Made by a program: the position numbers and the translations under genes | Shown here: positions 26,365-49,228 of the stretch, piece after piece | Numbering within the stretch: position 1 is the stretch's first letter | How the letters are laid out: each line of letters starts with the position of its first letter | Virus record (IMG/VR): IMGVR_UViG_2671180921_000012 | Strand: one strand, 5' to 3' | Length of the DNA stretch: 64,000 nucleotides | DNA from: a virus | Lineage: Duplodnaviria; Heunggongvirae; Uroviricota; Caudoviricetes | Notes under the pieces: model-generated | What the model was told of the DNA's origin: nothing | The model's input: the letters and a program-made list of their open reading frames with translations, nothing else | Databases searched by the model: none

Positions 26365-26365
26365 T

Positions 26366-27264: not shown

Positions 27265-27265
27265 T

Positions 27266-27475
27266 ATGGCTATTGCCGCAAGTTACACAATGCATCTCTA
27301 TTGTGACTGCCGCCAGTGTACGGAAGGTGTATATCCAGTGCCAGACTTCGGTGAGTATATAGGTACGTCATGGGCTGGCTGTGCAAAAGAGGCGCGCAAG
27401 GATGGCTGGCGAATAAGCAAAGACAAAACGCGTGCTTTTGCGCCTGGGCATAAAGTTTTGAGGATTAACAAATGA
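27266..27475 (+). CDS. Small Cys-rich protein (69 aa)
   Basis: HLYCDCRQC ... GC ... GH cluster; coupled to next gene. Confidence 0.4.
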   Translation: MAIAASYTMHLYCDCRQCTEGVYPVPDFGEYIGTSWAGCAKEARKDGWRISKDKTRAFAPGHKVLRINK

Positions 27476-28419: not shown

Positions 28420-28676
28420 TGGATGTAAAAGAGAAGGTTTTGCAGGTGATGCGTTCCCGGGCTGCCCTGCAAGATAAAGCTCTCGGCGGGAAATATCCAT
28501 TCAGGATGGCAACCTGGAATCTGCGGTTGGCAATGGAGAAGGAATTTCCTGATGAAGAATGGCGTTCGGCAGATTTGCGCAAAATTCTTATGGAGATGGC
28601 TAAAGATGGAACAGTATCCAAAGATACCCATGCCAGCCGGATTGGTCAGGCGGTATGGAGACTGGAGGTGAGGTAA
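28416..28676 (+). CDS. Hypothetical protein (86 aa)
   Basis: ORF with start overlapping upstream stop. Confidence 0.35.
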   Translation: MMDVKEKVLQVMRSRAALQDKALGGKYPFRMATWNLRLAMEKEFPDEEWRSADLRKILMEMAKDGTVSKDTHASRIGQAVWRLEVR

Positions 28677-28752
28677 TAAGCTGGCCTGAAGCATTTGCGA
28701 TTGTAGGCGTAGCTATGGCGATTGCCGCTATTTTTATCTTCTGGGGGTAACG

Positions 28753-28986
28753 ATGGGAAAATTAACTTTTGTAGTCGAATTTGAGGATGGCAAAGAGCCA
28801 CCTGTTAGCGCCAATCTTGATGTTGCTGGTGGCAGGCTGGTTTCGGTTCTATTTGGTGATTACCGCGACGACTTCTTTCAGCCTGAAGAAGTTGATGTAG
28901 TGCGAGAAGCATTAAACGAGCTAAGTGTTGATAACGATGATGCTCATGCGGAAATCATCAAAAAAATGGAACTGCTAACTCACTAA
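28753..28986 (+). CDS. Hypothetical acidic protein (77 aa)
   Basis: ORF preceded by RBS-like sequence. Confidence 0.35.
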   Translation: MGKLTFVVEFEDGKEPPVSANLDVAGGRLVSVLFGDYRDDFFQPEEVDVVREALNELSVDNDDAHAEIIKKMELLTH

Positions 28987-29034
28987 ATTATCAATTATGG
29001 TGCTATCACCTACGACACCGAGAGAAAATTTATA

Positions 29035-29157
29035 ATGTCAAAAGTAAATGTTTTGATTTTTTCAGCAATTGTTGGCTTTGGTTTTACTGCCGGAGTGCAG
29101 ATTTATATTACGTGGGAAAAAATCATCAACTACGCATGGAGTTGTTTTATTAAGTGA
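29035..29157 (+). CDS. Putative 40-aa single-TM membrane peptide in AT-rich islet
   Basis: MSKVNVLIFSAIVGFGFTAGVQIYITWEKIINYAWSCFIK; stop overlaps GAGG SD of next gene; below ORF-track size cutoff. Confidence 0.35.
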   Translation: MSKVNVLIFSAIVGFGFTAGVQIYITWEKIINYAWSCFIK

Positions 29158-29164
29158 GGTAAGT

Positions 29165-29458
29165 ATGTGGAGAGGTAATAATCATGGCAAAAGCCAGATG
29201 ATACTTACCGAATATAAGCTAGACCACAAAACCAATAAATCACGCTCAGTATATTTGCTCCGGCACAATAGCCGCGTAAGAAATACCGTGCTGGAACAAA
29301 ATCTGACAGTTGAAATGGATAATTGCGGGGGATTCAAGCCAACAATTTCGCTTGATGATTTTCCTCGTGGTTTAAGCGAAAGAGAAGCAATGCTGAAATT
29401 AGCAGAATGGCTACAAAGATTAAGCATTGCTATTGAAGATAACTGGTCTGAACCTTAA
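29165..29458 (+). CDS. Hypothetical protein in AT-rich islet (97 aa)
   Basis: ORF 29069..29458 trimmed to ATG at 29165 with GAGG SD; markedly AT-rich. Confidence 0.4.
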   Translation: MWRGNNHGKSQMILTEYKLDHKTNKSRSVYLLRHNSRVRNTVLEQNLTVEMDNCGGFKPTISLDDFPRGLSEREAMLKLAEWLQRLSIAIEDNWSEP

Positions 29459-29692
29459 ATTTATATGATGACACTAAAACATTTTCTTGACCGCCCATTA
29501 TGGGCGGCAGCCGCAGGCTATGACTTTAATTATATGGATTGCATGTCTTGTACTGCCAATGCATACGACCATTCGTTCATCCTGCTGTTTAATTCTTTAA
29601 GAATATTGCCGGAAACAGTATTTCTTAGGTGATGGAATGACTGATATTGCCAAAATGAACATTGAAGAATGGACTAAGGAATGTGAAAAGAA

Positions 29693-30316
29693 ATGGCGCA
29701 AAAAGAAATGACCAGAATCACTGAAGAGCGCATATCAGAGATTATTTCCCGTATCGAAATGTATGGTCACGGTGCTGGATATACGGCAGATGAAGTATTG
29801 GAAATAGCCCAGCAGATGCTGGCCTTGAGACAAAAAGAGCAACATGAAAGCAATACGTGTAGATTGAATTTTGAGCAGTGGCTGGAACAGCAACGCGGGA
29901 AAATCGATGTGGACTGTGGTTGTGTGTCCACTGAAACATTCATGCACTGGCTGCGGGTAGCTTACGAGGCTGGCAACTATCCGGATATTCCGGATAGTTC
30001 GGCGCAAGCACCAGGGAAGGGGGGCTTCCCCGGAGAGCGGATTCGAATTAAGCCGCATGTTTACCGTGAACTGGTTAACCGCCTCCACGATACAGCGATC
30101 AAGTGTGCTGGCACCCAGCAATTACGGGAAAGAATTAGCCGCGTTTTGGGCGAAGTTATTACACCAGATCGTCATAAACAAGCCGAGAAAAGCGGTCTGG
30201 AAAGGAGTCATCTTGAAGCGGCATTAAACATTAAACCGGGGCATACGCTAGGTGTCATTGATGCCATGTTGGTTCATGAAATGGCTAAGGCGTTATTGCC
30301 ACTGGAGGCTGATTAA
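29693..30316 (+). CDS. Hypothetical protein (207 aa)
   Basis: ORF with ATG start; no recognisable motif. Confidence 0.4.
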   Translation: MAQKEMTRITEERISEIISRIEMYGHGAGYTADEVLEIAQQMLALRQKEQHESNTCRLNFEQWLEQQRGKIDVDCGCVSTETFMHWLRVAYEAGNYPDIPDSSAQAPGKGGFPGERIRIKPHVYRELVNRLHDTAIKCAGTQQLRERISRVLGEVITPDRHKQAEKSGLERSHLEAALNIKPGHTLGVIDAMLVHEMAKALLPLEAD

Positions 30317-30350
30317 ATTCCGGATAAAGCTGATATCTGATCACCATGCT

Positions 30351-30381
30351 AAAATCCCCTCAATTCACAGAGGGGATTTTT
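30351..30381 (+). terminator. Strong terminator-like hairpin immediately upstream of the lipoprotein-hot genes
   Basis: AAAATCCCCTC-AATTCACA-GAGGGGATTTT followed by T-run; ends 5 nt before the ATG at 30386. Confidence 0.55.
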
Positions 30382-30385
30382 GTAT

Positions 30386-30652
30386 ATGTTGCGTAGATTT
30401 TTAGGTAAAAGCGTTATTGTCGGTGCGATGTTGGCTATGTCTGGGTGTGCTATGGTGCAATACAATGACGGAGAAAAGGTTAGCATCCAGTCAGATGGTT
30501 GGTATGGCCTGGATAGCCTGCAAAAAACAGCGGATAAAGCCTGCCAGCAATACGGAAAGTCTAAAGCCGTATATCAGCATAGCGCGAACGCTAACCCTCA
30601 TCTTGCGCCCGGTTCGGGTGTTCAGAATACCATCTGGAAATGTGAGCCTTAA
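30386..30652 (+). CDS. Lipoprotein (88 aa)
   Basis: ORF 30380..30652 trimmed to ATG; signal peptide with lipobox LAMSGC. Confidence 0.55.
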
Positions 30653-30654
30653 AC

Positions 30655-30903
30655 ATGAGCGACTGGAATATTGCAGCCAAAAGTCAGGAAGAACGGGATA
30701 AGGTTAACGTAGATCTGGCTGCCAGCGGTGTGGCGTACAAAGAGCGATTGAACATACCAGTCATAGCGGAACAGGTGGCCAGGGAACAACCTGAGCACTT
30801 GCGTGCATATTTCATGGAAAGACTACGTTATTACCGCGAGCAGAGCGTGAAACTACCAAAAGGAAGTGATCCGGTATATCAAAAGGCAGATCCACAAAAA
30901 TAA
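30655..30903 (+). CDS. hot: DNA polymerase III theta-subunit homolog (82 aa)
   Basis: [36 protein letters not shown] closely matches recalled E. coli HolE. Confidence 0.85.
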
Positions 30904-30978
30904 GCCTTTTCAATAAGCTATATCACCACCAGCTAAAAAATACATTCTGACTTGCATGAAATGCGCCCTTTAGCGATA

Positions 30979-30998
30979 TACTGTATATAAACACAGTA
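30979..30998 (+). promoter_or_regulatory. LexA (SOS) box upstream of humD
   Basis: TACTGTATATAAACACAGTA fits CTGT-N8-ACAG; 16 nt upstream of humD. Confidence 0.75.
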
Positions 30999-31014
30999 TT
31001 TAGGAGGGCGTATA

Positions 31015-33424: not shown

Positions 33425-33877
33425 ATGTTACTTAACTGGCAGGGACGCCACTTCATGGAAATAAATCACTCACGAATAACATCGTACGAGATTGCGGATT
33501 ACATGATCCGCACTAAATCTCTTCTATCAGCGAAAGATCTCGCAGCAATTCTTGAAAAGGAATACCCGCATCTGGATGTCGATAAGCGCGATGTTTATCT
33601 GCGCTTAAAGGCTATCGCTGTGTCTAAGTATTCGTCTGTTTTGATTGATGACAGTACACGCCCACGTAGATTTCAGATCCACTCTCTGAATCCTGAATTC
33701 TTTCGCCGCAGCCGCGCTCCGCGCCGGTTTGATGAAAAACTCCAGAACGAACTCTATATGACGCAGGACGAAAAGGAACGCCGGGAGCACCAGCCTTGGG
33801 TGATGGCGCGTCAACTTTTCAATAAGGTGGTCCGTCAGCACCGTCATTACGGTAATGCCACATCCGCACGTATCTGA
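33425..33877 (+). CDS. lpa: Late promoter activator-like protein (150 aa)
   Basis: Operator-controlled gene immediately upstream of pacA as recalled for P1 gene 10; AGGTGA SD; assignment by synteny. Confidence 0.5.
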   Translation: MLLNWQGRHFMEINHSRITSYEIADYMIRTKSLLSAKDLAAILEKEYPHLDVDKRDVYLRLKAIAVSKYSSVLIDDSTRPRRFQIHSLNPEFFRRSRAPRRFDEKLQNELYMTQDEKERREHQPWVMARQLFNKVVRQHRHYGNATSARI

Positions 33878-33887
33878 TTGATTGCTT

Positions 33888-33905
33888 GCCCGTTCCGGGC
33901 CTTTT
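33888..33905 (+). terminator. Weak terminator-like hairpin after lpa
   Basis: GCCCG-TTC-CGGGC followed by CTTTT. Confidence 0.35.
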
Positions 33906-33963
33906 GACATGTGACTTTCGTTACCCTCGCGTCAAAAAGAGTTTTATACGAAAGGAAGCATAA

Positions 33964-35157
33964 GTGACCTGGGACGATCACAAGAAGAATTTTGCTCGCC
34001 TGGCGCGAGATGGTGGTTACACCATCGCACAATATGCCGCCGAGTTTAATCTCAACCCAAACACCGCACGTCGTTATCTCCGTGCATTCAAAGAAGACAC
34101 CGGAACAGCGGACAGCCGTAAGCCAAATAAGCCTGTCAGGAAACCACTAAAAAGCATGATCATTGATCACGCTAATGATCAACGTGCAGGTGATCACGTT
34201 GTGGCTGAAATGGCTGAAAAACAAAGAGTTAATGCTGTTGTCAGTGCCGCAGTCGAGAACGCTAAGCGCCAAAATAAGCGCATAAATGATCGTTCTGATG
34301 ATCATGACGTGATCACCCGCGCCCACCGTACCTTACGTGATCGCCTGGAACGCGACACCCTGGATGATGATGGTGAACGCTTTGAATTCGAAGCTGGCGA
34401 TTACCTGATAGATAACGTTGAAGCGCGGAAGGCCGCGCGCGCTATGTTGCGTCGGTCCGGGGCTGATGTTCTGGAAACCACTCTTCTGGAAAAGTCTCTC
34501 TCTCATCTCCTTATGCTGGAGAACGCCAGGGATACGTGTATTCGCTTGGTTCAGGAAATGCGCGATCAGCAAAAAGACGATGATGAAGGAACTCCGCCTG
34601 AATACCGTATCGCGAGCATGCTAAACAGCTGTTCCGCGCAGATAAGCAGCCTGATCAACACCATTTACAGCATCCGGAATAACTATCGAAAAGAAAGCCG
34701 GGAGGCGGAAAAGCACGCTTTGTCTATGGGGCAAGCTGGCATTGTTAAGCTGGCATACGAACGAAAGCGTGAAAACAACTGGTCAGTGCTGGAGGCAGCT
34801 GAATTCATCGAGGCGCATGGAGGGAAAGTACCGCCCCTGATGCTGGAGCAAATCAAAGCCGATCTGCGTGCTCCTAAGACCAATACCGATGATGAGGAAA
34901 GGCAAACAGCCGTCGGTGGCCCTTCTCTTGAAGATCTGGACAAAGTTGCGCGAGAACGGGCCGCCAACCGCCGCGCCGATGCCGCATTGTGGATTGAGCA
35001 GCGTAGGGAAGAAATCGCCGATATCGTTGATACAGGCGGTTATGGAGATGTTGATACTGAAGGTGTATCAAACGACCCATGGCTGGAACAAGACCTGGAC
35101 GAAGACGAGGAGGAAGACGAAGAAGTTACCCGCAAGCTATACGGGGATGATGATTAA
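33964..35157 (+). CDS. pacA: Terminase small subunit / pac recognition protein (397 aa)
   Basis: GTG start; contains the pac hexamer cluster in its 5' coding region; coupled to pacB. Confidence 0.85.
34157..34315 (+). other. pac: pac packaging site: 4 + 3 TGATCA/G hexamers
   Basis: Hexamers at 34157, 34164, 34176, 34191 and 34287, 34299, 34310, each carrying a GATC. Confidence 0.85.
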
Positions 35158-38441: not shown

Positions 38442-38663
38442 ATGGGATATTCAGCTGCTAAAGTGTCCACTCATCTTGAGCTTGAGAAAAACCGTGGTTA
38501 CTGGCGGGCAAAAGGGTTTGATCGTGATAGTTGCCAACTGTCATTATCGCGCGGTGAAGAGAAAATAGAACGCACGCGCGGTCGCTGGCGTTTCTATGAC
38601 GAGAACCATAAACAGGTAACGGCAGAGCCAATCCTGTACACTTTACTTAAAACTATTATCTGA
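38442..38663 (+). CDS. Hypothetical small protein between loxP and cre (73 aa)
   Basis: ATG preceded by AGAGGTGA SD; ends 8 nt before cre. Confidence 0.35.
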   Translation: MGYSAAKVSTHLELEKNRGYWRAKGFDRDSCQLSLSRGEEKIERTRGRWRFYDENHKQVTAEPILYTLLKTII

Positions 38664-38670
38664 GTGTTAA

Positions 38671-39702
38671 ATGTCCAATTTACTGACCGTACACCAAAAT
38701 TTGCCTGCATTACCGGTCGATGCAACGAGTGATGAGGTTCGCAAGAACCTGATGGACATGTTCAGGGATCGCCAGGCGTTTTCTGAGCATACCTGGAAAA
38801 TGCTTCTGTCCGTTTGCCGGTCGTGGGCGGCATGGTGCAAGTTGAATAACCGGAAGTGGTTTCCCGCAGAACCTGAAGATGTTCGCGATTATCTTCTATA
38901 TCTTCAGGCGCGCGGTCTGGCAGTAAAAACTATCCAGCAACATTTGGGCCAGCTAAACATGCTTCATCGTCGGTCCGGGCTGCCACGACCAAGTGACAGC
39001 AATGCTGTTTCACTGGTCATGCGGCGGATTCGAAAAGAAAACGTTGATGCCGGTGAACGTGCAAAACAGGCATTGGCGTTCGAACGCACTGATTTCGACC
39101 AGGTTCGTTCACTCATGGAAAATAGCGATCGCTGCCAGGATATACGTAATCTGGCATTTCTGGGGATCGCTTATAACACCCTGTTACGTATAGCCGAAAT
39201 TGCCAGGATCAGGGTTAAAGATATCTCACGTACTGACGGTGGGAGAATGTTAATCCATATTGGCAGAACGAAAACACTGGTTAGCACCGCAGGTGTAGAG
39301 AAGGCACTTAGCCTGGGGGTAACTAAACTGGTCGAGCGATGGATTTCTGTCTCTGGTGTGGCTGATGATCCGAATAACTACCTGTTTTGCCGTGTCAGAA
39401 AAAATGGTGTTGCCGCGCCATCTGCCACCAGCCAGCTATCAACTCGCGCTCTGGAAGGGATTTTTGAAGCAACTCATCGATTGATTTACGGCGCTAAGGA
39501 TGACTCTGGGCAGAGATACCTGGCCTGGTCTGGACACAGTGCCCGTGTCGGAGCCGCGCGAGATATGGCCCGCGCCGGAGTTTCAATACCGGAGATCATG
39601 CAAGCTGGTGGCTGGACCAACGTAAATATTGTCATGAACTACATTCGTAACCTGGATAGTGAAACGGGGGCAATGGTGCGCCTGCTGGAAGATGGCGATT
39701 AG
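38671..39702 (+). CDS. cre: Cre tyrosine recombinase (343 aa)
   Basis: Sequence matches canonical Cre as recalled; adjacent to loxP. Confidence 0.97.
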   Translation: MSNLLTVHQNLPALPVDATSDEVRKNLMDMFRDRQAFSEHTWKMLLSVCRSWAAWCKLNNRKWFPAEPEDVRDYLLYLQARGLAVKTIQQHLGQLNMLHRRSGLPRPSDSNAVSLVMRRIRKENVDAGERAKQALAFERTDFDQVRSLMENSDRCQDIRNLAFLGIAYNTLLRIAEIARIRVKDISRTDGGRMLIHIGRTKTLVSTAGVEKALSLGVTKLVERWISVSGVADDPNNYLFCRVRKNGVAAPSATSQLSTRALEGIFEATHRLIYGAKDDSGQRYLAWSGHSARVGAARDMARAGVSIPEIMQAGGWTNVNIVMNYIRNLDSETGAMVRLLEDGD

Positions 39703-39752: not shown

Positions 39753-40064
39753 ATGCGGAAGGATTTCAAAATAGACGGAAAATATGTGGTGCTGTCTGTA
39801 AGCTCTCAAATTCAGTCACCATCTGTCATTGTCACCGTAAAGTTGAGCGATAGGATGCCTGATATCGACTCGATATCTGTTGCGTTCCCCGTTAAAAGCA
39901 TGCGGAGTGCTGAACATTTTGTGATGAATGCAACGGAGGAGGAAGCGCGGCGCGGGCTTACTAGAGTGATGGTGGAATTTGGCGAACTCCTGGGTAAGGT
40001 AAACAATGCCCTTTCAATCAGTTCAGCAAGATCCAAAGCGTTAACAGCTTCCATGATGAAATAA
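39753..40064 (+). CDS. cra: Cre-associated small protein (103 aa)
   Basis: ORF directly downstream of cre with GGTGA SD; assignment by synteny. Confidence 0.5.
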   Translation: MRKDFKIDGKYVVLSVSSQIQSPSVIVTVKLSDRMPDIDSISVAFPVKSMRSAEHFVMNATEEEARRGLTRVMVEFGELLGKVNNALSISSARSKALTASMMK

Positions 40065-40311: not shown

Positions 40312-40872
40312 ATGAAAACAATCGAACAAAAACTTGAACAGCGCCGCGAGTGGCAGAAGGCAGCCAGAGAACGAGCGATCGCTCGGCAACGGGAAAAGTT
40401 GGCTGACCCCGCTTGGCGAGAATCGCAATATCAGAAAATGCGGGATTCTATCGACCGCCGTATCGCTAAACAGAAAGAGCGCCCACCAGCCAGCAAAACG
40501 CGGAAAAGCGCGGTAAAAATAAAATCTCGTGGCTTGAAGGGGAGAACACCAACGGCGGAGGAACGGCGCATCGCCAATGCTCTTGGCGCTCTCCCCTGCA
40601 TTGCCTGCTACATGCATGGAGTAATATCTGGAGAGGTATCTCTGCACCATATCTCCGGTCGTACCGCGCCGGGTTGTCACAAAAAGCAATTGCCCCTTTG
40701 TAGATGGCACCACCAGCATGCAGCACCGGCTGAAGTAAGAGAAAAATACCCCTGGCTGGTCCCTGTTCATGCCGATGGTGTGGTTGGAGGCAAGAAAGAA
40801 TTCACCTTGCTGAACAAGTCAGAGATGGAGTTGCTGGCTGACGCCTATGAGATGGCAAACATCATGCACTAA
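40312..40872 (+). CDS. ref: HNH-type endonuclease, recombination enhancement function (186 aa)
   Basis: 186 aa; Cys/His cluster LPCIACYMHGV ... HHISGR ... CHKKQLPLCRWHHQH. Confidence 0.8.
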   Translation: MKTIEQKLEQRREWQKAARERAIARQREKLADPAWRESQYQKMRDSIDRRIAKQKERPPASKTRKSAVKIKSRGLKGRTPTAEERRIANALGALPCIACYMHGVISGEVSLHHISGRTAPGCHKKQLPLCRWHHQHAAPAEVREKYPWLVPVHADGVVGGKKEFTLLNKSEMELLADAYEMANIMH

Positions 40873-40909
40873 TAAATATATTATTTTTAATCTGAAATAA
40901 TTGACAACT

Positions 40910-40932
40910 GACAAGTGACTTCAGTCAGAATC
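40910..40932 (+). promoter_or_regulatory. Candidate late promoter upstream of mat
   Basis: GACAAGTGACT, 5 nt, CAGAAT; same layout as prt, lyz, baseplate and lydA upstream regions. Confidence 0.4.
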
Positions 40933-41060
40933 ATCACATGCCCGGTACGGATGGATCCCTTTTCAAATATTCCATGGACGGCACAGTCTGAGTACCGGGC
41001 GCTACCTTCAGTTGTATTGCTAAGCCGCCGCTGGTGGCTTTTCTTTTTTGTAGGGGCGCT

Positions 41061-41702
41061 ATGGATAAGAAAATATGCGTTGTTTCGATGAGCGTCGGCA
41101 AACCGGCGTCAATGACTGCCGCATGGATCAACAATGAGCTAATAATGGCTGAGCGGACCAGCTACCCTGAACGCCGCCGCGATATGGAACTCCAGCTGCT
41201 GCGCGAATTGCGAGAAAAAGAGGAAAAGGGTTTTATCGTGCTGGTGGAAGAGGAAAACAGCTTTATTACTGGTCGAGTTGGCCAGCGTGTAAGGTTGCGC
41301 GATCCCTTCATGAACGGCAGGCCGGTACTGATTGAAGCAATGCAGATTTACAAGGAGCTGGAACGCCAGAAAGCGATCAAGTTACCGCGCAAGGAATCCG
41401 GCAAATACATCCTCCACCAAAGCATCTTCGATTCCGAACACGATAAAAAAGGCGATGAATTTTTCAACATCAACTGGAGCGAAATAACGACAGAGCACGT
41501 TCTGACGTTGTTATGCTGCTTCGCAACGGAATACAACAACGTTGCAAGCTCCGACTACATCAGGGCAATGGCTGGAGAAGTTGAGGCACGCCAGGAACCA
41601 TCGTTACTAAGCCCTCTGATTAACATAATTCGCGGAACCCAAACACTGGCGCAAAAACAAGTACCACAAGGGGAATTGACAGGTAAAGGTAATTATCTCT
41701 GA
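41061..41702 (+). CDS. mat: Hypothetical protein at the P1 mat position (213 aa)
   Basis: ORF 41034..41702 trimmed to ATG with AGGGG SD; symbol by synteny. Confidence 0.5.
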   Translation: MDKKICVVSMSVGKPASMTAAWINNELIMAERTSYPERRRDMELQLLRELREKEEKGFIVLVEEENSFITGRVGQRVRLRDPFMNGRPVLIEAMQIYKELERQKAIKLPRKESGKYILHQSIFDSEHDKKGDEFFNINWSEITTEHVLTLLCCFATEYNNVASSDYIRAMAGEVEARQEPSLLSPLINIIRGTQTLAQKQVPQGELTGKGNYL

Positions 41703-41741
41703 AAGATGCCCGGCGATAGACCGGGCAAAAGGGCGGAAAGT

Positions 41742-41990
41742 TTAATCAGCATTCAGGAGCAATGCGTTATCTATGATGATCTGCTCCCATTCTTCGAATG
41801 CCCGATCGCGGACGCCCTGGGGAACACTGTTAGTTTTGAAATCGACGACCGTACGCCATTTCCCGTCCGGACGGTACATGCGCAGAGCTTTACTTCCCCC
41901 TTCCCTGCGCACCTCAACGTTATGCTTGTCAGCAAACTCTTGTAATGCTCGTAGCGTCCCATGCTTTACTGTGTAGTATCGCTTTTTCAA
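41742..41990 (-). CDS. lxc: Small C1 co-regulator Lxc/Bof-like protein (82 aa)
   Basis: 82-aa ORF upstream-adjacent to darB as in P1. Confidence 0.6.
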   Translation of the reverse strand: MKKRYYTVKHGTLRALQEFADKHNVEVRREGGSKALRMYRPDGKWRTVVDFKTNSVPQGVRDRAFEEWEQIIIDNALLLNAD

Positions 41991-42427
41991 GTTTTCTCTC
42001 CAGCCTGTGCCAAGGCTTCAACTTCCAAATCGTAAGACTCAAACTCATAGTCCTGGTCGTCAACTTCTTCAGGCACTGGCAGTAAATGCCAGGCTGAGTA
42101 TATCTGACCATTATCAAAACGCTCCTGGCTGTAGAGCGTCGCGGCTATGAGTGTTAGCGCCGGGCGGTCATAACGGTAAATTTTGCGAACGTCACGGTCA
42201 ACGAGACGACCGAAATTACCATAACCGCGCTCCAGTAATAATTTTTTAATTTCCGGCCAGTATGGACCATAGCTGCGGTACAGGCGGGGATTTTTCAGTA
42301 ATCGCCCGCGTAGCCCTGACAGGAAGAAATCAACGTATTCGTCTTCTGTCTTTCCTAACAACGCTGTACGGAGTACCGCCTCAAGATATGTTTTATTCGG
42401 TTTTATTGTATCAGATAGTGTGGCCAT
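41987..42427 (-). CDS. ulx: Hypothetical protein upstream of lxc (146 aa)
   Basis: ORF between darB and lxc; symbol by synteny. Confidence 0.55.
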   Translation of the reverse strand: MATLSDTIKPNKTYLEAVLRTALLGKTEDEYVDFFLSGLRGRLLKNPRLYRSYGPYWPEIKKLLLERGYGNFGRLVDRDVRKIYRYDRPALTLIAATLYSQERFDNGQIYSAWHLLPVPEEVDDQDYEFESYDLEVEALAQAGEKT

Positions 42428-42460
42428 ATTATGCGACGCCCGGCGAACCGGGCGCTCCTG

Positions 42461-45400
42461 TTATGCGTATTGTTGGATGACGGCCAGAACGTCCGCCACG
42501 TTGTGTTTTGTCTCGATAATCCACCAGTTACCCGGGAAATCGCTGTTCTTCGCCTTCGCTGGCAGCCAGCGAGCGCCGAATTTCGCCTTGATTGCGTCTT
42601 TCGCACGGAAAAGAACGCCTTTCATGCCTGAGGCTTCCTGAAGCCCAAATACCTCGCCAGCGGCGAATTTTGGTGCGTACATCATCTTCAGGTCGGCGGT
42701 GGATACGCGATAATTCAGACCAAGAGACTGAGCTATGCTGGTGGCATCACCCTGTATTGATGATAACTCTTCTTGTTTCTCGTTTCTGGCGGCAATCTCT
42801 TCCTCCGTGATGTTGCCAAGGGTTAGGTTTATCCGATCAGCGTCGGCCTGTTTCTCTTCATCGGTGCGCCCGGCAAGAACCGTGTTAATTCTCTGCAATA
42901 TCTCCACATGATTCTTGCGCATGCTGAGCAATTCCGGCGTAACCTCGTTAAGATCCACCAGCCCAAGGATGGCAAGGTCGGAAAACATTGATACCAGGTT
43001 GTAGGTCATGCGATAGCTGAGTTGACCATAGGCTGATGGCAACTTCACCGCATCCATTTGATAGGCATCCATAAATTTAGAGCCGTTGTTTACGACATCC
43101 GCTATTGCAGGTGTGATTTTCCCTGTGGTGGCGGCCTCCCTGATTGCTGTTACCCACGATTGAGTCAGCGCGGCGACTGCATGATTCAGATTGGCTTCCC
43201 GTTCTGCTGCGATGCGCGCGCTTGCTGCGTCCATTGCCTGCTTGATCTCGGCTTTATTGCTGTAAATGCCAATGGTGCCAAACTGTGCTGTGGTGATCTC
43301 ATAATCTGACGCCCGGAACTCATTGGTACCGAAAATGGCATTGGTGACTTCAAGTTCAGAATCCCCGTTACGAGTAGCCCCCTGGCTTGTTTTTTCCGGC
43401 ATTCTGGCGATCGCATCCGCTATTTTCTCCTGAATTGCTTCAGGGGATAGCGTATCTCCGTATGACGCGATTACATCGCCATAATTGGAGCCAAACAATT
43501 CAACCAGGAATGTTTCTGCCGAACGGATCTGGCGGTTATTCCCTTCCGACATCATACCAAGCACCCATTTTGCAATTGACGACTTCAGCGCGCCGTCACG
43601 GCGATCCGGGTAAACCGCATGCTTCAGTGGGTCCGTATAGGTGCCAACAAAATCAATGCTATAGCCTGACTCTGTAGTCTGAACGCCGTACGAGTCAGTT
43701 ATTTTGATCATGCCGCGCTGCTGGAAACGGTAGAAATCGTCACAGGAAATGATGTCGTTAATCCCGGCGATGGAGACGCCACCACTGATTTTCTGCATAA
43801 CAGCATCTTCATCGGGAGTTACATCCACCTGTTTATCCAGCGTCTTCACATCCCAGTTACCCGATTTGGTGCCTTTGAAGGTAAAGATGATCTCCACGTC
43901 TGCGCGCTGGCTGTCGAAGTCCAGCGACTTAATGCGAACGATATCACCGGCACAATCATAGTATTGGCCTACACGCCATGAGCGATCGCCGATAACAAGG
44001 AACTCATTCGCATGGTTAACCAGATCAGGATCAACATCCAGAATGCCTTTATTTATTGCATCCTCCACCAGCGGGCGCAGGCGTTTGATATCCGTCGCGG
44101 CCTTCTGAGTACGGTTCAATAATTTCTCATAGCGGGAGATGGCCTGAGAGATATTAGCCTTGCGCTGAATGGCGCTTTTCAACGACGCGCGATACTGTGC
44201 TAACAACATACGGTCTGTGTGATGGACGCTACCCCAGCGGGCTTTCCAGTCTGCGTTATCAGCTGCTTTGGCCATTACCGCCTGTTTGAATTTGGCGACG
44301 TCGGCGGTGGTCTTTTCAAGTTCCGCTTTGCTTCGCTCCAATTCAGCGGTAAGTACCTCCACATCCTCACCAGCTGCGTGCTGCGCCTTGATGTAGTTCT
44401 GAAGGTCGATAGTAGCCTGTTCTTTCTGGCGAGCGCGTTTCGCAGCTTTCGCCTTATCCATTTGAACCTGCATCATTACCAGACGTTCGCCGTCATCCTT
44501 CGCGGTATACATCTGCATTTCGATCATGTCATTGGCGTCGGCGTTCTCCATTTCTGACTTATCTGAACGGAGGATATCGGAGATCCAGCCTGCTTTACGC
44601 TTCAGCGTCTTCAGTCGGTATTCATCGAAAGACCCCTTGCCGCAGTAGTAGTGAACGCGAACGCTTGCACGGTTGGAGCCAACTCGTGCACCGCGACCGT
44701 TACGTTGTGCGATACTGGCTGGTGTCCACGGCAACGTCAGGTGGTGGATATCCGTCGTTCCTCGATGCAGGTTGATACCCACCTCTGCCTTTTTGTTGCA
44801 GATGATGATCGGAGTCCGGCCCTCCTGGAAGTCGGCTGCAATCTTTTCCAGACCGCCCAACGACATTTCATTTTGCTGCGCGATATAGGCGTCATACAGA
44901 GCCATTTGCTCGTTGTATTTCGCTATCTGTGCATCTGTTGGTTCATCCGGTAGCTCTTTCGGCGGTTTAACCGCTTTCAGTTTCTTACCGGTTTTACCTG
45001 CCTCGGCAACCGTCTGAGCATTCAGGATACCCACCTTTGAAGGTTCAAGGTTAAGAGCATTGCAGATAATGCGCTTGAGCTTCTGGTGCTGCGTTTTTTC
45101 ATCGGTGAAGATGATTTGCTTACCTTCCGGGAAAAACTCCTTCAGCGTGGCGATCAGCTTCGCGTATTTGGGTGTAACGGGGTGAGTTACGGTCTGTTCG
45201 TCAATGCCAAACTTGGCCAGGCGCTTATTCACTTCCTGCTCAAATGCTTCCGGTACCTGCAACTGAATAAACTCGCCCTTATCTATCAGGGAGTATTGCG
45301 ATTGCTGCGTGATCGAATCATCACTGTCGTCGTCTTCGCTGGTGGCTTGTTTAGGCAAACTGTCCGCCAGCTGCTGCACCGCATCGGCGTACTCCGGCAG

Positions 45401-48400
45401 GAAACGATAGGTGATCCGGCGATAGTACAGGTCCATGTCAGTACATACGCGGTCCATATCCCTGATTATTGAGAAGATCGGACGGGCTTTCTCGTGCTCA
45501 ATCACGCCGTCTTCATTGACCGAGGTCGTTACGCCATTGTTGGCTTTGGCTGCCGCTTCCGCCTGCTGACGCAATTCTTCATACGCCGCCAGTTGTTCTT
45601 CCGTAAGTGGTGCATCCTGCTGGTGTTCGTCCAGTTCCGGGATCTCCACGGTATCCTTAACGTCTTCCGCCGTTTTAAGCGTTGTCCAGCGATGGAATAT
45701 GCCGCGCAGCGCATCAAGGTTTTCAAAGCCCACCAGCGCCATTTTTTCTTCAACTTCACCGCTGATTTTCTGTACCGTTTCCAGCCTGGTCTTGCCGAAG
45801 AATTTAACGAAGTCATCAGGACCGTAGATCCCCATCTTCTGCCAGTATTCCTTCGGCAGAACATGAGAAAGCATGTTGTATGCATCGATCGGGGTGTTAA
45901 CGACTGGCGTTGCAGTCAGGAGAACCGGCCCGCGCCCGCCATTCTTTTTCATCAGGTACGCGTTTTTGATTGCCATATCCCGCGCCGATTGCGCCACCGC
46001 GCTGGTGGGCAGATAGGCCAGTTGTGACGCTTCGCGACCATTTTTATAGCTATTGCGGTAGTTGTGACCTTCGTCGGCGATCACACTATCGAAGCCCATA
46101 TCCTCAAAGTACGGATACTTCTCTGCTTTTTCGGTGCCGGTATCTGAATACTCCGACAATACCCGGCGACGCGCGGCCTCTTTGCGGTGGGAGTCGGAGT
46201 CCATTGCGCTGGCTACGCGTCCGGCGGCAACGAAGTCATAAAGCATATCCTGTGCATGCTCATCTACGGTGTCATCACGTAGCGGAATGCGGGCGTATTG
46301 TTCTTTGGTAAACACGACTGCACGGTAATTTGAGTGCGGGATCGCGTTCATCCGCGCCGTGATAGTGGCTTCATCTGCCAGCTTAAGAGCATCGCGCATA
46401 ACTGGAGTGCCATCAGTACCAAGAACAGGTTTACCGTTCTCATCGAGCACCGGCACCTGGCGAATCTGATCGCCATCCATCAGCACATCAAGACCGACGA
46501 ACAGGTAGTTACTGAATGCCTCTTCACTCAGGAATTCTTTTGCTTCGTAATACCAGTTTTCCAGCACTGATTTAGGCACTACATACGCAGTACGGGTGGA
46601 GCGACCGTTCTCATAGTTGAACGCCTCAAGCGCCAGCGCGGTCGTAGTTTTACCCAGCCCGGTGCCGAAGCCCAGGATGCCGCGCCCATCTTCGGACAGT
46701 CGGCGCACTTCGCTATTCTGGTAATCAAATGGCTGGCGCTTACCGCTTAATCCCTTCAACCCAAGCGGATCGCCAGAGTGTTCATACGGGATATTGCTAT
46801 TGAAAACATCGTTGTATTTGGCAACCAGCTCATCGTAGCGATCGTGCGTCTTGATCCACTTATTGAACTGGTCCTCAAGCAGTGACATCTGCTCGCGGTA
46901 GCCGTTCGCCGTCGCGCTATCTTTGCCACCGATACGCGCACCATTCAGATACTTTTCCAGCTGTGCCGGGAACCCGGTCGCGTTTTCACCTGATTTACGG
47001 TCCCACTCGTAGCGGATCTCGCCTGTTTCTTTATCCTTGCGCTGGACGACACCGTATCGGTGCCCGACGAACAGACCATCACCACCGTGATAGGTGTCAG
47101 AAACCATTTCGTCGCCTTCCAGCTGCACTGACTGCACATAGCGCAGATCCGGATAGCCGTTTTCCTGCAAAAATTCCAGAATCACGGAACGGTCGAACCA
47201 ACGGCTATTGAGCTTAAACCGGATATTCTCTGCTGGCGTCTTGATGCGCTTCTCTTCGATCGCTGCCAGCTGATTAAGGACGTTGTTCTTTACTGGACCG
47301 TCGGGGAGCGTGGCGAGGAATTCCTGTTTTGGAGCCACTATCTCGTTAATGTCGCCGCTGGTGGCGCGGGCGAACGGAACAATCCCGCCATACGGTGAAA
47401 CCGCAATGCCAGGGGTGCTGGCCAATAAATTAAGCAACTCGTCATCACTGGCTGGCAGTTCGCCGGTAAACGCAAGGCGGAAATCATCGAGCTGGATTGG
47501 ATCGCGAGTGAGATCACTGTAGAGATAACGCAGGGTGTCCTGATAGCTGGTGGAGTCATAACTGGCGCTGGAATCATGCGTAACCAGTTTTCCTGTCAGC
47601 TCGTCAGAAATAGTGCCATCCAGCTTAATTGCACCACGGAAAGCAAACCAGGCGCGCGCACCGCTCCCCGATAATTTCGCTATCGGACCGCGACCGGGGT
47701 TACCAAAACGGTCAATCTCTGCCTGCAAACGGGATACCAGAGAAAGGCGCTGCTGTTCGATTTGTTCAGCACTATGCCCGGCGGCCTTCATGTCCTGATA
47801 TTCAATTAACATCCGGCCAATCATCGCCCCGCGATACAAGCGTTCACGGTATTTTTCAGGCTGGCTGTTAATCCAGTCCACCAGCTGCACCATATCGTCG
47901 CTGATTGATGTGGTGTATTTATCGCGGACATTTGCCATCTGGGTAAATGTCATACCGAGACGGCCTTCTGTTGTAGTCAGGTTACGCTGAAGAGCCTCCC
48001 AGCTGTCCGCGCCATAACTGGCAACATCAATCTTCAGCTCCTTCCCGGCATCAGCTTCAATCCAGCGACCACCAGCATATTTTTGCCATACGCCATTAAT
48101 CAGGCGCATTTCCCCTTCATCAACAACATCTGCGGTCGGTGACGGTTCAGCCATATCGAGCAAAGACCAGTCGATACGACTTTCGAAACGATGAATCAGC
48201 TTCGCTTTAAGAGCCTGGTTATCAATCTGCCCGTCGGCACGAACCTCAATACGCCCCTGGAATCCCTTCTCCTGAGTGCCATGAACAAACCGGCGGCCGT
48301 CCTTTTCAAACCACTTGCCAGAAATAAACGTTGGCCAAAGCACATTTGCCGATTCAAGAGTGCCTTCATCCACCAGGGGGATTTTCTCAGCCATCTCCGC

Positions 48401-49228
48401 CGGATGTTTGCGCATCAGCACCACGTCAACGACCGTACTGGTCCCGTTTGCGTCAAAAGTACCGGTAGGCAAGCGGTGGGCACCAAGAAATTCAGCTTTC
48501 CGTGATAGGCGCAGGCGTAACCGCTTCATGTTTGAACCTGAAACAATGGACGGCGGCACAATCACGCACATGAATCCGCCTGGCTTTATCTTGTCCAGCA
48601 TGCGGAGCATGAAGTAAGAACCCATGTCCGTTTCTTCTGCGTAAGGCTTATCGATGTTGCGTGTGTTATCACGACCACCGAACGGAACGTTACCCACAAC
48701 ATGGTCGAATGAATCGTTAGGCGTGCTTATAGCCAGCTGTTCGAACGGGGAAATCTGTACGCTGTCTTCCGGGTGTAACAACTGGTTTATACGACCGGAA
48801 ACACTGCTGATCTCAGTCGCGGTCATCACCGTACCAACCGGTTTTGTCTCATTAAAAACGCCGGTGCCCGCCGATGGTTCCAGAGTGTTACCTACGTCCG
48901 CGCCGTAGAGCTTCATGATCTCCCAGACACCTTCAGCGATCGGCTTTGGTGTGTAATATTCGGAGACGGACCCGCCAATGCCGCCTTCACCGGTGTACCC
49001 AGCCAGGATCTGGCGCTGTTCATCTGTCAGTGTCGCGCCGTCCACCAGCGAATTAAGCAAATCTATCGCCTTCTGATTCGCCTCCCGGCGTAGTCGGTCA
49101 TAGCTTTTGCCTTCCACCTTTTCCACGCCGTATCTAATCGGCGCTCGGTGAGATGTTATTGCCCTAATGTATTTCAATATTTCGCTGACACTTGAACAGC
49201 GAAACACCCCCATAGATAGCTTGTTCAT
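42461..49228 (-). CDS. darB: Antirestriction protein DarB: N6-adenine MTase-like domain fused to DExH helicase (2255 aa)
   Basis: 2255 aa; MTase motifs LEPSAGTGVF and VGNVPFG; helicase motifs GFGTGLGKT and DEGHNY. Confidence 0.9.
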   Translation of the reverse strand: MNKLSMGVFRCSSVSEILKYIRAITSHRAPIRYGVEKVEGKSYDRLRREANQKAIDLLNSLVDGATLTDEQRQILAGYTGEGGIGGSVSEYYTPKPIAEGVWEIMKLYGADVGNTLEPSAGTGVFNETKPVGTVMTATEISSVSGRINQLLHPEDSVQISPFEQLAISTPNDSFDHVVGNVPFGGRDNTRNIDKPYAEETDMGSYFMLRMLDKIKPGGFMCVIVPPSIVSGSNMKRLRLRLSRKAEFLGAHRLPTGTFDANGTSTVVDVVLMRKHPAEMAEKIPLVDEGTLESANVLWPTFISGKWFEKDGRRFVHGTQEKGFQGRIEVRADGQIDNQALKAKLIHRFESRIDWSLLDMAEPSPTADVVDEGEMRLINGVWQKYAGGRWIEADAGKELKIDVASYGADSWEALQRNLTTTEGRLGMTFTQMANVRDKYTTSISDDMVQLVDWINSQPEKYRERLYRGAMIGRMLIEYQDMKAAGHSAEQIEQQRLSLVSRLQAEIDRFGNPGRGPIAKLSGSGARAWFAFRGAIKLDGTISDELTGKLVTHDSSASYDSTSYQDTLRYLYSDLTRDPIQLDDFRLAFTGELPASDDELLNLLASTPGIAVSPYGGIVPFARATSGDINEIVAPKQEFLATLPDGPVKNNVLNQLAAIEEKRIKTPAENIRFKLNSRWFDRSVILEFLQENGYPDLRYVQSVQLEGDEMVSDTYHGGDGLFVGHRYGVVQRKDKETGEIRYEWDRKSGENATGFPAQLEKYLNGARIGGKDSATANGYREQMSLLEDQFNKWIKTHDRYDELVAKYNDVFNSNIPYEHSGDPLGLKGLSGKRQPFDYQNSEVRRLSEDGRGILGFGTGLGKTTTALALEAFNYENGRSTRTAYVVPKSVLENWYYEAKEFLSEEAFSNYLFVGLDVLMDGDQIRQVPVLDENGKPVLGTDGTPVMRDALKLADEATITARMNAIPHSNYRAVVFTKEQYARIPLRDDTVDEHAQDMLYDFVAAGRVASAMDSDSHRKEAARRRVLSEYSDTGTEKAEKYPYFEDMGFDSVIADEGHNYRNSYKNGREASQLAYLPTSAVAQSARDMAIKNAYLMKKNGGRGPVLLTATPVVNTPIDAYNMLSHVLPKEYWQKMGIYGPDDFVKFFGKTRLETVQKISGEVEEKMALVGFENLDALRGIFHRWTTLKTAEDVKDTVEIPELDEHQQDAPLTEEQLAAYEELRQQAEAAAKANNGVTTSVNEDGVIEHEKARPIFSIIRDMDRVCTDMDLYYRRITYRFLPEYADAVQQLADSLPKQATSEDDDSDDSITQQSQYSLIDKGEFIQLQVPEAFEQEVNKRLAKFGIDEQTVTHPVTPKYAKLIATLKEFFPEGKQIIFTDEKTQHQKLKRIICNALNLEPSKVGILNAQTVAEAGKTGKKLKAVKPPKELPDEPTDAQIAKYNEQMALYDAYIAQQNEMSLGGLEKIAADFQEGRTPIIICNKKAEVGINLHRGTTDIHHLTLPWTPASIAQRNGRGARVGSNRASVRVHYYCGKGSFDEYRLKTLKRKAGWISDILRSDKSEMENADANDMIEMQMYTAKDDGERLVMMQVQMDKAKAAKRARQKEQATIDLQNYIKAQHAAGEDVEVLTAELERSKAELEKTTADVAKFKQAVMAKAADNADWKARWGSVHHTDRMLLAQYRASLKSAIQRKANISQAISRYEKLLNRTQKAATDIKRLRPLVEDAINKGILDVDPDLVNHANEFLVIGDRSWRVGQYYDCAGDIVRIKSLDFDSQRADVEIIFTFKGTKSGNWDVKTLDKQVDVTPDEDAVMQKISGGVSIAGINDIISCDDFYRFQQRGMIKITDSYGVQTTESGYSIDFVGTYTDPLKHAVYPDRRDGALKSSIAKWVLGMMSEGNNRQIRSAETFLVELFGSNYGDVIASYGDTLSPEAIQEKIADAIARMPEKTSQGATRNGDSELEVTNAIFGTNEFRASDYEITTAQFGTIGIYSNKAEIKQAMDAASARIAAEREANLNHAVAALTQSWVTAIREAATTGKITPAIADVVNNGSKFMDAYQMDAVKLPSAYGQLSYRMTYNLVSMFSDLAILGLVDLNEVTPELLSMRKNHVEILQRINTVLAGRTDEEKQADADRINLTLGNITEEEIAARNEKQEELSSIQGDATSIAQSLGLNYRVSTADLKMMYAPKFAAGEVFGLQEASGMKGVLFRAKDAIKAKFGARWLPAKAKNSDFPGNWWIIETKHNVADVLAVIQQYA

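What the first reader, a model, noticed from the sequence alone, without database searches (positions are those of the whole stretch)
41703..41741. No restriction-modification genes or IS1 between mat and lxc: empty defence-cargo site
cre-cra-ref-mat is followed after only 39 bp (containing a GCCCGG-CGATAGA-CCGGGC hairpin at 41708-41726) by the convergent lxc-ulx-darB genes. In P1 as I recall it, the type III R-M genes res and mod (about 5 kb) lie between mat and lxc and IS1 lies in the same general region. The distance from cre to cin here (about 25 kb) is roughly 5-6 kb shorter than I recall for P1, consistent with their absence. This junction is therefore a likely swap site for defence cargo in related elements, and this element relies on darA/darB antirestriction without carrying its own R-M system.
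Basis: partly seen in the sequence, partly recalled or inferred. Interest (0 to 1): 0.5.

Follow-up and report, generated by a model that had tools for sequence, protein, structure and literature searches.

The report
Empty cargo slot in P1-like phage-plasmid
This P1-like phage-plasmid has nothing but a 39-bp stem-loop spacer where phage P1 keeps its restriction-modification genes; this is a known minority allele (about 5% of relatives) of a published variable region that carries anti-phage genes in most other relatives, so it is real but ordinary.

Summary
The mat stop codon (41700-41702) and the lxc stop codon (41742-41744, minus strand) are 39 bp apart, and GCCCGG-CGATAGA-CCGGGC lies at 41708-41726. 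In P1 and P7 this interval holds the type III res/mod genes. IS1 does not lie there: in P1 it is 13 kb away, and the insertion inside mod is IS5.

The window matches P1 everywhere except at the published variable regions of P1-like phage-plasmids. The same 39-bp junction occurs in phage RCS47, in 31 of 701 PLSDB plasmids, in 35 of 699 complete E. coli genomes that carry the flanks, and in 8 of 73 IMG/VR loci.

The other IMG/VR loci carry at least 11 alternative low-GC cassettes exactly between the two stop codons. These include type III R-M, CapRel (the validated SJ46 system), SIR2, PIN, DUF2971, JukA, GNAT, a deoxyribosyltransferase-like/YaaC pair and AraC+EAL. The swap-site reading is therefore supported.

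The window holds no res/mod homolog and no complete known defence system, while the Dar anti-restriction genes are intact. About 30 kb of the replicon lies outside the window.

The slot is already published as RD-1, or "region 1". Interest is low. The modest added value is the census of defence cargo and the near-universal stem-loop 3' of lxc.

The parts
38442..38663 (+). cra
   Evidence: ORF; collinear with P1 207-428
38671..39702 (+). cre recombinase
   Evidence: 343-aa ORF; collinear with P1 436-1467
   Evidence: 103-aa ORF; corresponds to P1 c8 at 1518-1829
40312..40872 (+). ref
   Evidence: 186-aa ORF; corresponds to P1 ref at 2077-2637
41061..41702 (+). mat (maturation control), most likely 213 aa starting at ATG 41061. 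The mechanical ORF starts at GTG 41034.
   Evidence: The 642-nt length matches the mat annotations of RCS47, SJ46 and CP088789.1. Hits phrog_1837.
41672..41702 (+). Diverged 3' end of mat. Its allele travels with the slot state, and the protein keeps its length and the VPxGxLTGKxNY[LF] motif.
   Evidence: The BLAST match to P1 stops at 41671; alignment; Mat C-termini of all cargo classes
41703..41741 (.). 39-bp mat-lxc spacer: the unoccupied allele of the res-mod cargo slot (RD-1)
41708..41726 (.). Stem-loop GCCCGG-CGATAGA-CCGGGC. It is the local version of the stem-loop found 7-33 nt 3' of the lxc stop in 73 of 80 related loci.
41742..41990 (-). lxc (modulator of the C1 repressor)
   Evidence: 82-aa ORF; 99% identical to 80 IMG/VR copies; phrog_2160
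41987..42427 (-). ulx (Dar anti-restriction component)
   Evidence: 146-aa ORF; phrog_1629, Ulx-like anti-restriction
42438..42453 (.). Second GCCCGG-CGAA-CCGGGC stem-loop, between the darB stop and the ulx start
42461..49228 (-). darB (methyltransferase/helicase, anti-restriction), intact at 2255 aa
   Evidence: The coding span is 6768 nt, as for P1 darB at 10469-17236.
55940..61834 (-). ddrB, ddrA, darA and hdf: the second Dar anti-restriction operon. All are intact ORFs with coding spans equal or within 9 nt of the P1 annotation (hdf 612 nt in both).
   Evidence: ORF list; P1 coordinates; collinearity

Best explanation
The 39-bp interval is the unoccupied allele of a cargo slot that every P1-family phage-plasmid has between the convergent stop codons of mat and lxc. 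This slot is the published variable region RD-1 or 'region 1', which holds res-mod in P1.

The slot begins right after the mat stop codon. It ends at a stem-loop a few bases 3' of the lxc stop codon. In this element only that stem-loop and 20 flanking bases remain. It therefore encodes no restriction enzyme or other slot-borne defence gene, while keeping the full Dar anti-restriction set (darB, ulx, hdf, darA, ddrA, ddrB).

Shown: the anatomy of the slot, how often it is empty, and the variety of cassettes that relatives carry in it.

Inferred: cassettes are gained, lost and exchanged by homologous recombination between co-resident P1-like elements, using the conserved flanks. One crossover falls at or next to the lxc end or stem-loop. 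The other falls in or beyond mat, which explains why the last ~40 codons of mat are a cassette-linked allele.

Also inferred: the stem-loop acts as a 3'-end element (terminator, insulator or stabiliser) for the lxc transcript, and for convergent mat or cargo transcription. It is not a recombination signal.
For: - **Backbone.** The window is collinear with P1 at 92-98% identity except at five stretches. Those stretches coincide with published variable regions 1, 2, 3, 7 and 8 (PMC9603915).
- **Same junction elsewhere.** RCS47 has it, at 98.7% identity over 1.6 kb. It is contiguous in 31 of 701 PLSDB plasmids. It is also contiguous in 35 of 699 E. coli complete genomes and in 8 of 73 IMG/VR loci.
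- **Occupied alleles**:
  - SIR2, 13 loci
  - DUF2971, 10
  - CapRel, 9
  - type III mod+res, 7
  - PIN, 6
  - JukA+HTH+Ant, 4
  - GNAT, 7
  - deoxyribosyltransferase-like + YaaC, 4
  - AraC+EAL, 4
  - a 135-aa ORF, 1
- **Validated cargo.** The SJ46 copy of CapRel matches PDB 7ZTB over all 373 residues (E = 1.4e-250). It is a validated anti-phage system (PMC9712102).
- **Composition.** Cassettes are 32-43% GC against 48-52% for the backbone.
- **Left boundary.** Mat stays full length in nearly every class (one GNAT_b copy ends 8 codons early), with a class-specific C-terminus.
- **Stem-loop.** A stable stem-loop follows the lxc stop in 73 of 80 loci, built from at least 10 unrelated sequences. 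It is missing only where the co-oriented mod follows lxc.
- **Uncoupling from the backbone.**
  - An empty locus (L071) and a SIR2 locus (L049) are 99.92% identical over 10,247 nt of darB-ulx-lxc, up to the lxc stop. They then diverge.
  - The nearest flank neighbours of empty loci mostly belong to other cargo classes.
- **No R-M in the window.** Shown.
Against: - About 30 kb of the replicon lies outside the window (P1 coordinates ~31.8-63.3 kb). An R-M or other defence system there cannot be excluded. Only near relatives could be inspected, through incomplete PLSDB gene tables.
- The stem-loop has no U-tract on the plus strand and only AUCUUUC on the lxc strand. The terminator scan did not call it, so its role as a terminator is not established.
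- The recombination mechanism is inferred from mosaic patterns, not observed.
- PADLOC v2 (2023) holds only described systems. Uncharacterised ORFs elsewhere in the window could be defence genes. Examples are the 364-aa ORF at 54516-55610 and the SPFH protein at 7340-8167.
Confidence: 0.85

Rival explanations
1. The empty site is a secondary loss. An ancestor of this element carried res/mod or another cassette, and a later recombination or deletion removed it cleanly.
For: Empty loci are scattered among cargo-bearing loci in the darB-ulx flank rather than forming one clade. L071 (empty) and L049 (SIR2) differ by 8 nt in 10.2 kb of flank, so state changes are recent and frequent. L052 (29-bp empty) combines the mat side of the empty39 allele with the stem-loop and lxc end of the CapRel_a class, which fits recombinational replacement.
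Against: The 39 bp hold no cassette remnant. Seven of the eight empty IMG/VR loci share the same 39-bp spacer length and sequence family. P1's sequence 3' of lxc aligns at about 65% with the empty-site stem-loop (hand count on the alignment). It looks like a decayed copy, which suggests res/mod entered an empty-like site. Direction cannot be decided from these data, and replacement by an empty allele through recombination is mechanistically the same as the best explanation.
Confidence: 0.4
2. The element does carry its own R-M or another defence system, but at a different variable region, either outside the window or as an unrecognised gene inside it.
For: Other P1-like elements carry type I R-M in the pmg region (pSvP1, PMC6906374) or genes inserted between repA and parA (a GIY-YIG nuclease in NZ_CP148411.1). 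The window has uncharacterised cargo at 54516-55610 (364 aa, weak P-loop-like hit) and at 7340-8167 (SPFH). It also has a 7.5-kb block at 22444-29961.
Against: The pmg-region insert here encodes Ead/Ea22, DUF4752 and DUF551 ORFs, not R-M. The whole-window PADLOC scan finds no nuclease component of any system. The closest relative, CP088789.1, covers 61.8 of the 64 kb at 98.6-99.4% identity. It has no R-M annotated in the part that lies outside the window. Only 28% of E. coli P1-like elements have a complete defence system by DefenseFinder (bioRxiv 10.1101/2025.09.12.675607).
Confidence: 0.15
3. The GCCCGG-loop-CCGGGC stem-loop is a recombination or insertion signal that targets cassettes to this slot, rather than a transcript 3'-end element.
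For: The same stem with different loops abuts lxc in five slot states: empty, CapRel_a, GNAT_a, GNAT_b and NDT/YaaC. L052 looks like a crossover at the stem. A second copy lies between darB and ulx. The RecA-dependent nuclease gene ref and the cre gene lie 1-3 kb away.
Against: Other classes have unrelated stem-loops at the same place (SIR2, DUF2971, CapRel_b, PIN, AraC). What is conserved is therefore a structure 3' of lxc, not a sequence. No matching repeat lies at the mat side of the cassettes. The motif is absent from the other variable-region borders of the window. Left breakpoints spread over 133 nt of mat, as expected for homologous recombination.
Confidence: 0.07

Closest known systems
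Escherichia phage RCS47 (NC_042128 / FO818745), mat-lxc junction
   Same: It has the same 39-bp spacer with the same stem; one loop base differs (CGACAGA against CGATAGA). The mat 3' allele is nearly identical (2 substitutions in the last ~30 nt). Identity is 98.7% over window 40900-42500.
   Different: RCS47 is 115 kb and carries other cargo elsewhere. The window differs from it in other variable regions.
Phage P1 / P7 res-mod locus (type III R-M EcoP1I / EcoP7I)
   Same: The flanking genes and orientation are the same: mat, then lxc-ulx-darB convergent.
   Different: P1 carries 5.1 kb of mod+res (6.3 kb with IS5) where the window has 39 bp. P1 has no clean stem-loop 3' of lxc, because the mod promoters occupy that stretch.
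Variable region RD-1 (Venturini et al. 2019, PMC6906374) = 'region 1' (PMC9603915) of P1-like phage-plasmids
   Same: It is the same locus. Those papers already report that res-mod is missing or replaced in many P1-like elements, and that the region has low GC.
   Different: As far as I read those papers, they do not describe three things. These are the exact slot boundaries (stop codon to stop codon), the lxc-proximal stem-loop, and a census of the defence content.
Anti-phage hotspots of P2-like phages and P4-like satellites (Rousset et al. 2022, PMC9122126)
   Same: It is a fixed position between conserved phage genes that holds many alternative, compact, low-GC cassettes enriched in defence systems.
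   Different: The phage family is different (a plasmid prophage). Here an empty allele exists at about 5%. Experimental anti-phage evidence for cassettes from this slot is limited to EcoP1I (established knowledge) and CapRel-SJ46.
CapRel-SJ46 fused toxin-antitoxin (PDB 7ZTB; Zhang et al. 2022, PMC9712102)
   Same: In SJ46 it occupies exactly this slot, between mat and lxc. The same class is found in 9 of 73 IMG/VR loci.
   Different: It is absent from the window.

Membership tests
P1-like phage-plasmid (Punavirus) with the RCS47-type empty res-mod slot | Backbone collinear with P1 on both sides of the slot | tested here: met
   BLAST of the window against P1 gives 95.9% identity for P1 1-3437 and 97.8% for P1 9743-22532, adjacent in the window.
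P1-like phage-plasmid (Punavirus) with the RCS47-type empty res-mod slot | Intact convergent mat and lxc separated only by the 39-bp spacer | tested here: met
   The spacer differs from that of RCS47 by one base.
P1-like phage-plasmid (Punavirus) with the RCS47-type empty res-mod slot | The junction is seen in independent complete records, so it is not an assembly artefact | tested here: met
   31 PLSDB plasmids, 35 RefSeq E. coli genomes and 8 IMG/VR contigs.
Type III restriction-modification (EcoP1I-like) | Mod subunit (N6_N4_Mtase plus EcoP15I C-terminal domain) and Res subunit (ResIII helicase plus endonuclease domain) | tested here: not met
   These domains are present in the L017 cassette. 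tblastn of those proteins against the window gives a best E of 1.1. No REase or Res model is hit in the PADLOC scan.
Intrinsic (Rho-independent) terminator | GC-rich stem-loop | tested here: met
   A 6-8 bp G+C stem, -17.4 kcal/mol, z = -2.2 to -2.9.
Intrinsic (Rho-independent) terminator | U-tract immediately 3' of the stem | tested here: not met
   The plus strand continues with AAAAGGG. The lxc strand continues with AUCUUUC. The consensus scan did not call the site.
Phage-encoded defence hotspot (P2/P4 type) | A fixed position between conserved genes with many alternative cassettes | tested here: met
   At least 11 cassette classes plus the empty state, in 73 loci, always between the mat stop and the lxc stop.
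Phage-encoded defence hotspot (P2/P4 type) | Enrichment of cassettes in known or candidate defence genes | tested here: met
   Type III R-M, CapRel (PDC-S33, 7ZTB), SIR2 (PDC-S25/ThsA-like), DUF2971 (PDC-S31), PIN (PDC-S34) and JukA together make up 49 of the 65 occupied loci.
Phage-encoded defence hotspot (P2/P4 type) | Cassettes demonstrably protect against phages | not testable with these tools
   Literature evidence only. CapRel-SJ46 is covered by PMC9712102. EcoP1I restriction is established knowledge.

The most novel reading that the evidence does not exclude
The mat-lxc slot may be a true anti-phage hotspot of the P1 family, comparable to the P2/P4 hotspots. If so, the uncharacterised cassettes found in it in relatives would be undescribed anti-phage systems. 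These are the nucleoside-deoxyribosyltransferase-like + YaaC pair, the GNAT acetyltransferase, AraC+EAL and the 135-aa ORF. The naturally empty allele seen in this window would be the isogenic landing pad and control for testing them.
Probability: 0.35. Interest if true: 0.5.

Novelty: already known. Interest (0 to 1): 0.2.

Why it matters
For this window it matters little. It is one of the roughly 5% of P1-like phage-plasmids whose res-mod slot is empty, a configuration already on record (RCS47) at a locus already published as a variable region.

The comparative picture has some use. It gives base-level boundaries for the slot, from the mat stop codon to the stem-loop 3' of lxc. Most occupants are known or candidate defence genes, including the experimentally validated CapRel-SJ46. 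That makes the slot a guilt-by-location source of candidate anti-phage genes. The empty allele is also a natural insertion site for engineering P1 vectors.

Tried and rejected
- **Type I R-M in the pmg insert.** P1's annotation notes similarity to hsd-flanking DNA around pmgT and phd, so I expected hsd genes in the 7.5-kb insert at 22444-29961. Pfam and PADLOC show only Ead/Ea22, DUF4752 and DUF551 ORFs.
- **Source replicon.** I looked for it in order to inspect the missing ~30 kb. The best matches are 99.6% (CP090076.1, CP088789.1) in PLSDB and 99.2% in RefSeq E. coli; none is identical. NZ_CP148411.1 shares the junction at 100% but is a different mosaic.
- **Canonical terminator.** The scan does not call the stem-loop.
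- **Known RNA family.** There is no Rfam match at E <= 1 in 41000-42600.
- **Antisense ORF 41706-41945** (79 aa, ATG inside the gap). I judged it spurious: it overlaps lxc on the opposite strand, and its start is not conserved in other slot states.
- **Stem motif at other borders.** The GCCCGG...CCGGGC motif does not mark the borders of other variable regions. The only other copy lies between darB and ulx.
- **Literature.** I found no explicit description of a P1 mat-lxc defence hotspot. There are only general variable-region descriptions and defence-system tallies without positions.
- **First whole-window PADLOC scan.** It was swamped by methyltransferase models hit by Dmt and DarB, so I repeated it without those two proteins.

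Full report
**1. What is in the window**

The mat ORF ends with TGA at 41700-41702. On the minus strand, lxc (82 aa) occupies 41742-41990. It is followed by ulx (41987-42427) and darB (42461-49228, 2255 aa). The gap 41703-41741 is therefore 39 nt.

GCCCGG (41708-41713), CGATAGA (41714-41720) and CCGGGC (41721-41726) form the reported hairpin. It folds at -17.4 kcal/mol with z = -2.2, and at -20.2 kcal/mol with z = -2.9 in the lxc sense with more flank.

The upstream gene order is cra (38442-38663), cre (38671-39702), c8 (39753-40064), ref (40312-40872) and mat.

**2. Comparison with P1**

In NC_005856, mat is 2716-3468 and res is 3544-6456 on the minus strand. mod follows up to about 9600 and is interrupted by IS5 (7652-8846) in this laboratory strain. 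lxc is 9750-9998. P7 has the same arrangement with an intact mod.

IS1 is not in this interval. It lies at 22626-23393 between isaA and isaB.

A BLAST of the whole window against P1 shows collinearity with P1 63312-94800 and then 1 to about 31836. There are five exceptions:
- 7098-8185
- 22444-31014, of which only patches match
- 41672-41734
- 54525-55643
- 63224 to the end of the window

These coincide with published variable regions 7 (tciABC), 8 (pmgT-humD), 1 (res-mod), 2 (isaA-IS1-isaB) and 3 (cin/tail fibre) of P1-like phage-plasmids (PMC9603915). They also include RD-1 and RD-2 of Venturini et al. (PMC6906374).

P1 bases 3438-9742 (6305 bp, or 5.1 kb without IS5) are replaced here by 63 bp. 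Those 63 bp are the last 31 nt of mat, in a diverged allele, plus 32 nt of the spacer.

**3. Is the junction real, and how common is it?**

Phage RCS47 has the same junction: mat ends at 3467, lxc starts at 3507, and one loop base differs.

A 500-bp query centred on the junction gives these counts:

| Collection | Records with the flanks | Contiguous (empty) junction |
|---|---|---|
| PLSDB plasmids | 701 | 31 |
| Complete E. coli RefSeq genomes | 699 of 5426 | 35 |
| IMG/VR loci with both flanks | 73 | 8 (seven of 39 bp, one of 29 bp) |

In the remaining PLSDB records the match breaks at query positions 259-275. That is within a few bases of the lxc stop codon. The empty state is thus a genuine minority allele at roughly 4-11%.

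**4. What relatives carry in the slot**

I clustered the interval between the two stop codons in the 73 IMG/VR loci and scanned the ORFs with Pfam and PADLOC.

| Cassette | Size | Loci |
|---|---|---|
| SIR2_2 protein (PDC-S25 / ThsA-like) | 434 aa | 13 |
| DUF2971 (PDC-S31) | 346 aa | 10 |
| RelA/SpoT (PDC-S33) | 378 aa | 9 |
| Type III mod+res | 5.1 kb | 7 |
| PIN_12 (PDC-S34) | 316 aa | 6 |
| JukA + HTH + antirepressor | 3.6 kb | 4 |
| GNAT acetyltransferase | about 201 aa | 4+3 |
| Nucleoside-deoxyribosyltransferase-like + YaaC-like | 169 aa + 346 aa | 4 |
| AraC + EAL | about 1.9 kb | 4 |
| Unknown ORF | 135 aa | 1 |

In phage SJ46 the RelA/SpoT gene sits exactly between mat and lxc. Its product matches PDB 7ZTB over all 373 residues. 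It is the CapRel-SJ46 fused toxin-antitoxin shown to defend against phages (PMC9712102).

All cassettes are 32-43% GC, against 48-52% for mat, lxc-ulx and darB.

**5. Anatomy of the slot and likely mechanism**

*The mat side.* Mat keeps the same length in nearly every class; the one GNAT_b copy examined ends 8 codons early. Its last ~40 residues are a class-specific diverged allele that retains the motif VPxGxLTGKxNY[LF]. The cassette therefore starts after the mat stop codon, and the adjacent mat end hitchhikes with it.

*The lxc side.* Homology resumes at the lxc stop codon. A stable stem-loop lies 7-33 nt 3' of that stop in 73 of 80 loci. It is built from at least 10 unrelated sequences. 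It is missing only in the type III R-M class, where mod is co-oriented with lxc and, in P1, the mod promoters occupy the stretch.

*The GCCCGG...CCGGGC stem.* This stem recurs with different loops in the empty, CapRel_a, GNAT_a, GNAT_b and NDT/YaaC classes. A second copy lies between the darB stop and the ulx start at 42438-42453. That makes two copies in the window against 0.03 expected.

*Function of the stem-loop.* It has no proper U-tract and is not called by the terminator scan. It matches no Rfam family. Its role as a 3'-end, insulator or stabiliser element for lxc and for convergent transcription is an inference from position and structural conservation.

*Evidence for exchange by homologous recombination:*
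- Empty locus L071 and SIR2 locus L049 are 99.92% identical over 10,247 nt of darB-ulx-lxc, up to the lxc stop. They then diverge, and the mat side is 97% identical.
- The nearest flank neighbours of empty loci mostly belong to other cargo classes.
- The 29-bp empty allele (L052) joins the mat side of the empty39 allele to the CapRel_a-type stem-loop and lxc end.

*Direction of change.* P1's sequence 3' of lxc aligns at about 65% with the empty-site stem-loop. That figure is my count on the alignment. It hints that res/mod entered an empty-like site, but the direction of change is not settled.

**6. Does this element lack its own R-M?**

- tblastn with type III Mod and Res finds nothing in the window; the best E is 1.1.
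- The ORFs of the non-P1 stretches have no R-M or defence hits.
- A PADLOC scan of 80 non-overlapping ORFs covering the window hits only methyltransferase models, attributable to Dmt and DarB.
- Without those two proteins, only four weak hits remain: mad8, PDC-M59B and LmuB twice.
- The Dar genes are all intact ORFs whose coding spans match the P1 annotation or differ by at most 9 nt.

About 30 kb of the replicon lies outside the window. The closest records are CP090076.1 and CP088789.1, at 99.6% identity over 24.6 kb. CP088789.1 covers 61.8 kb of the window at 98.6-99.4%. It has the same empty junction and no annotated R-M, but it is not the same element. The claim therefore holds for the window and is probable, not proven, for the whole replicon.

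A survey of clinical isolates found complete defence systems in only 28% of E. coli P1-like elements (bioRxiv 10.1101/2025.09.12.675607). Lacking one is the common condition.

**7. Verdict**

The finding is not new. The locus is the published RD-1 or 'region 1', and the identical empty junction is in the published phage RCS47.

This analysis adds base-level slot boundaries, the near-universal stem-loop 3' of lxc, and a census showing that most occupants are known or candidate defence genes. That census makes the slot resemble the P2/P4 anti-phage hotspots (PMC9122126). I found no paper in the held library that says so explicitly. Interest is low for the window itself.

Noticed in passing
window 54516-55610 (+), within 54525-55643: At the IS1 position of P1 (variable region 2, RD-2) the window has a 364-aa ORF instead of IS1 and isaB. 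It matches phrog_5902 (function unknown). It also has a weak P-loop or terminase-large-subunit-like hit (phrog_2, E = 5e-9). It has no Pfam or PADLOC match. It could be uncharacterised cargo.
   Followed up: partly
window 7098-8185 (ORFs 7123-7359 and 7340-8167, +): The tciA-tciC (TerB-like) genes of P1 are replaced by a 78-aa membrane-protein-like ORF and a 275-aa SPFH/Band-7 protein (Pfam E = 1e-30; phrog_200). Neither has a PADLOC hit.
   Followed up: partly
window 22444-31014: A block of about 7.5 kb holds small plus-strand ORFs typical of lambdoid early regions: Ead/Ea22 twice, DUF4752 and DUF551, plus several ORFs of unknown function. It replaces the P1 stretch from pmgU to lxr. It contains no R-M, although some relatives carry type I hsd genes in this region.
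   Followed up: partly
window 42438-42453: A second GCCCGG-CGAA-CCGGGC stem-loop (-17.1 kcal/mol) lies in the 33-nt gap between the darB stop and the ulx start. On the mRNA strand it is preceded by CAGGAG. Its function is unknown; it could be an attenuator, a processing site or a translational coupling element.
   Followed up: partly
window 41022-41063: A terminator-like hairpin with a T-run (41022-41050) precedes the probable mat start at ATG 41061. The window has GGGG where P1 and RCS47 have GGGGG. The longer 250-aa Mat reading frame annotated in P1 is therefore not open here. The 213-aa form annotated in RCS47 and SJ46 is intact.
   Followed up: partly
window 63355-63936 (-): The cin-like invertase gene is only about 69% identical to P1 cin and lies in the opposite orientation relative to the lyd genes. 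This suggests a different tail-fibre inversion module, matching published variable region 3.
   Followed up: no
L020:10308-11857 (also L048, L058, L066): This two-gene cassette in the mat-lxc slot of some relatives pairs a 169-aa protein with a 346-aa YaaC-like protein. The 169-aa protein is nucleoside 2-deoxyribosyltransferase-like (Pfam E = 2e-4, below the gathering score). The YaaC-like protein scores E = 1.5e-45. The pair has no PADLOC hit and is a candidate for an undescribed defence system.
   Followed up: partly
L005 (NZ_CP148411.1) 5566-6774 and 33742-34917: The plasmid that shares the junction at 100% carries a transposase inserted between ddrA and ddrB, and a TnpB gene next to pacA. 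It is a different mosaic from the window.
   Followed up: no
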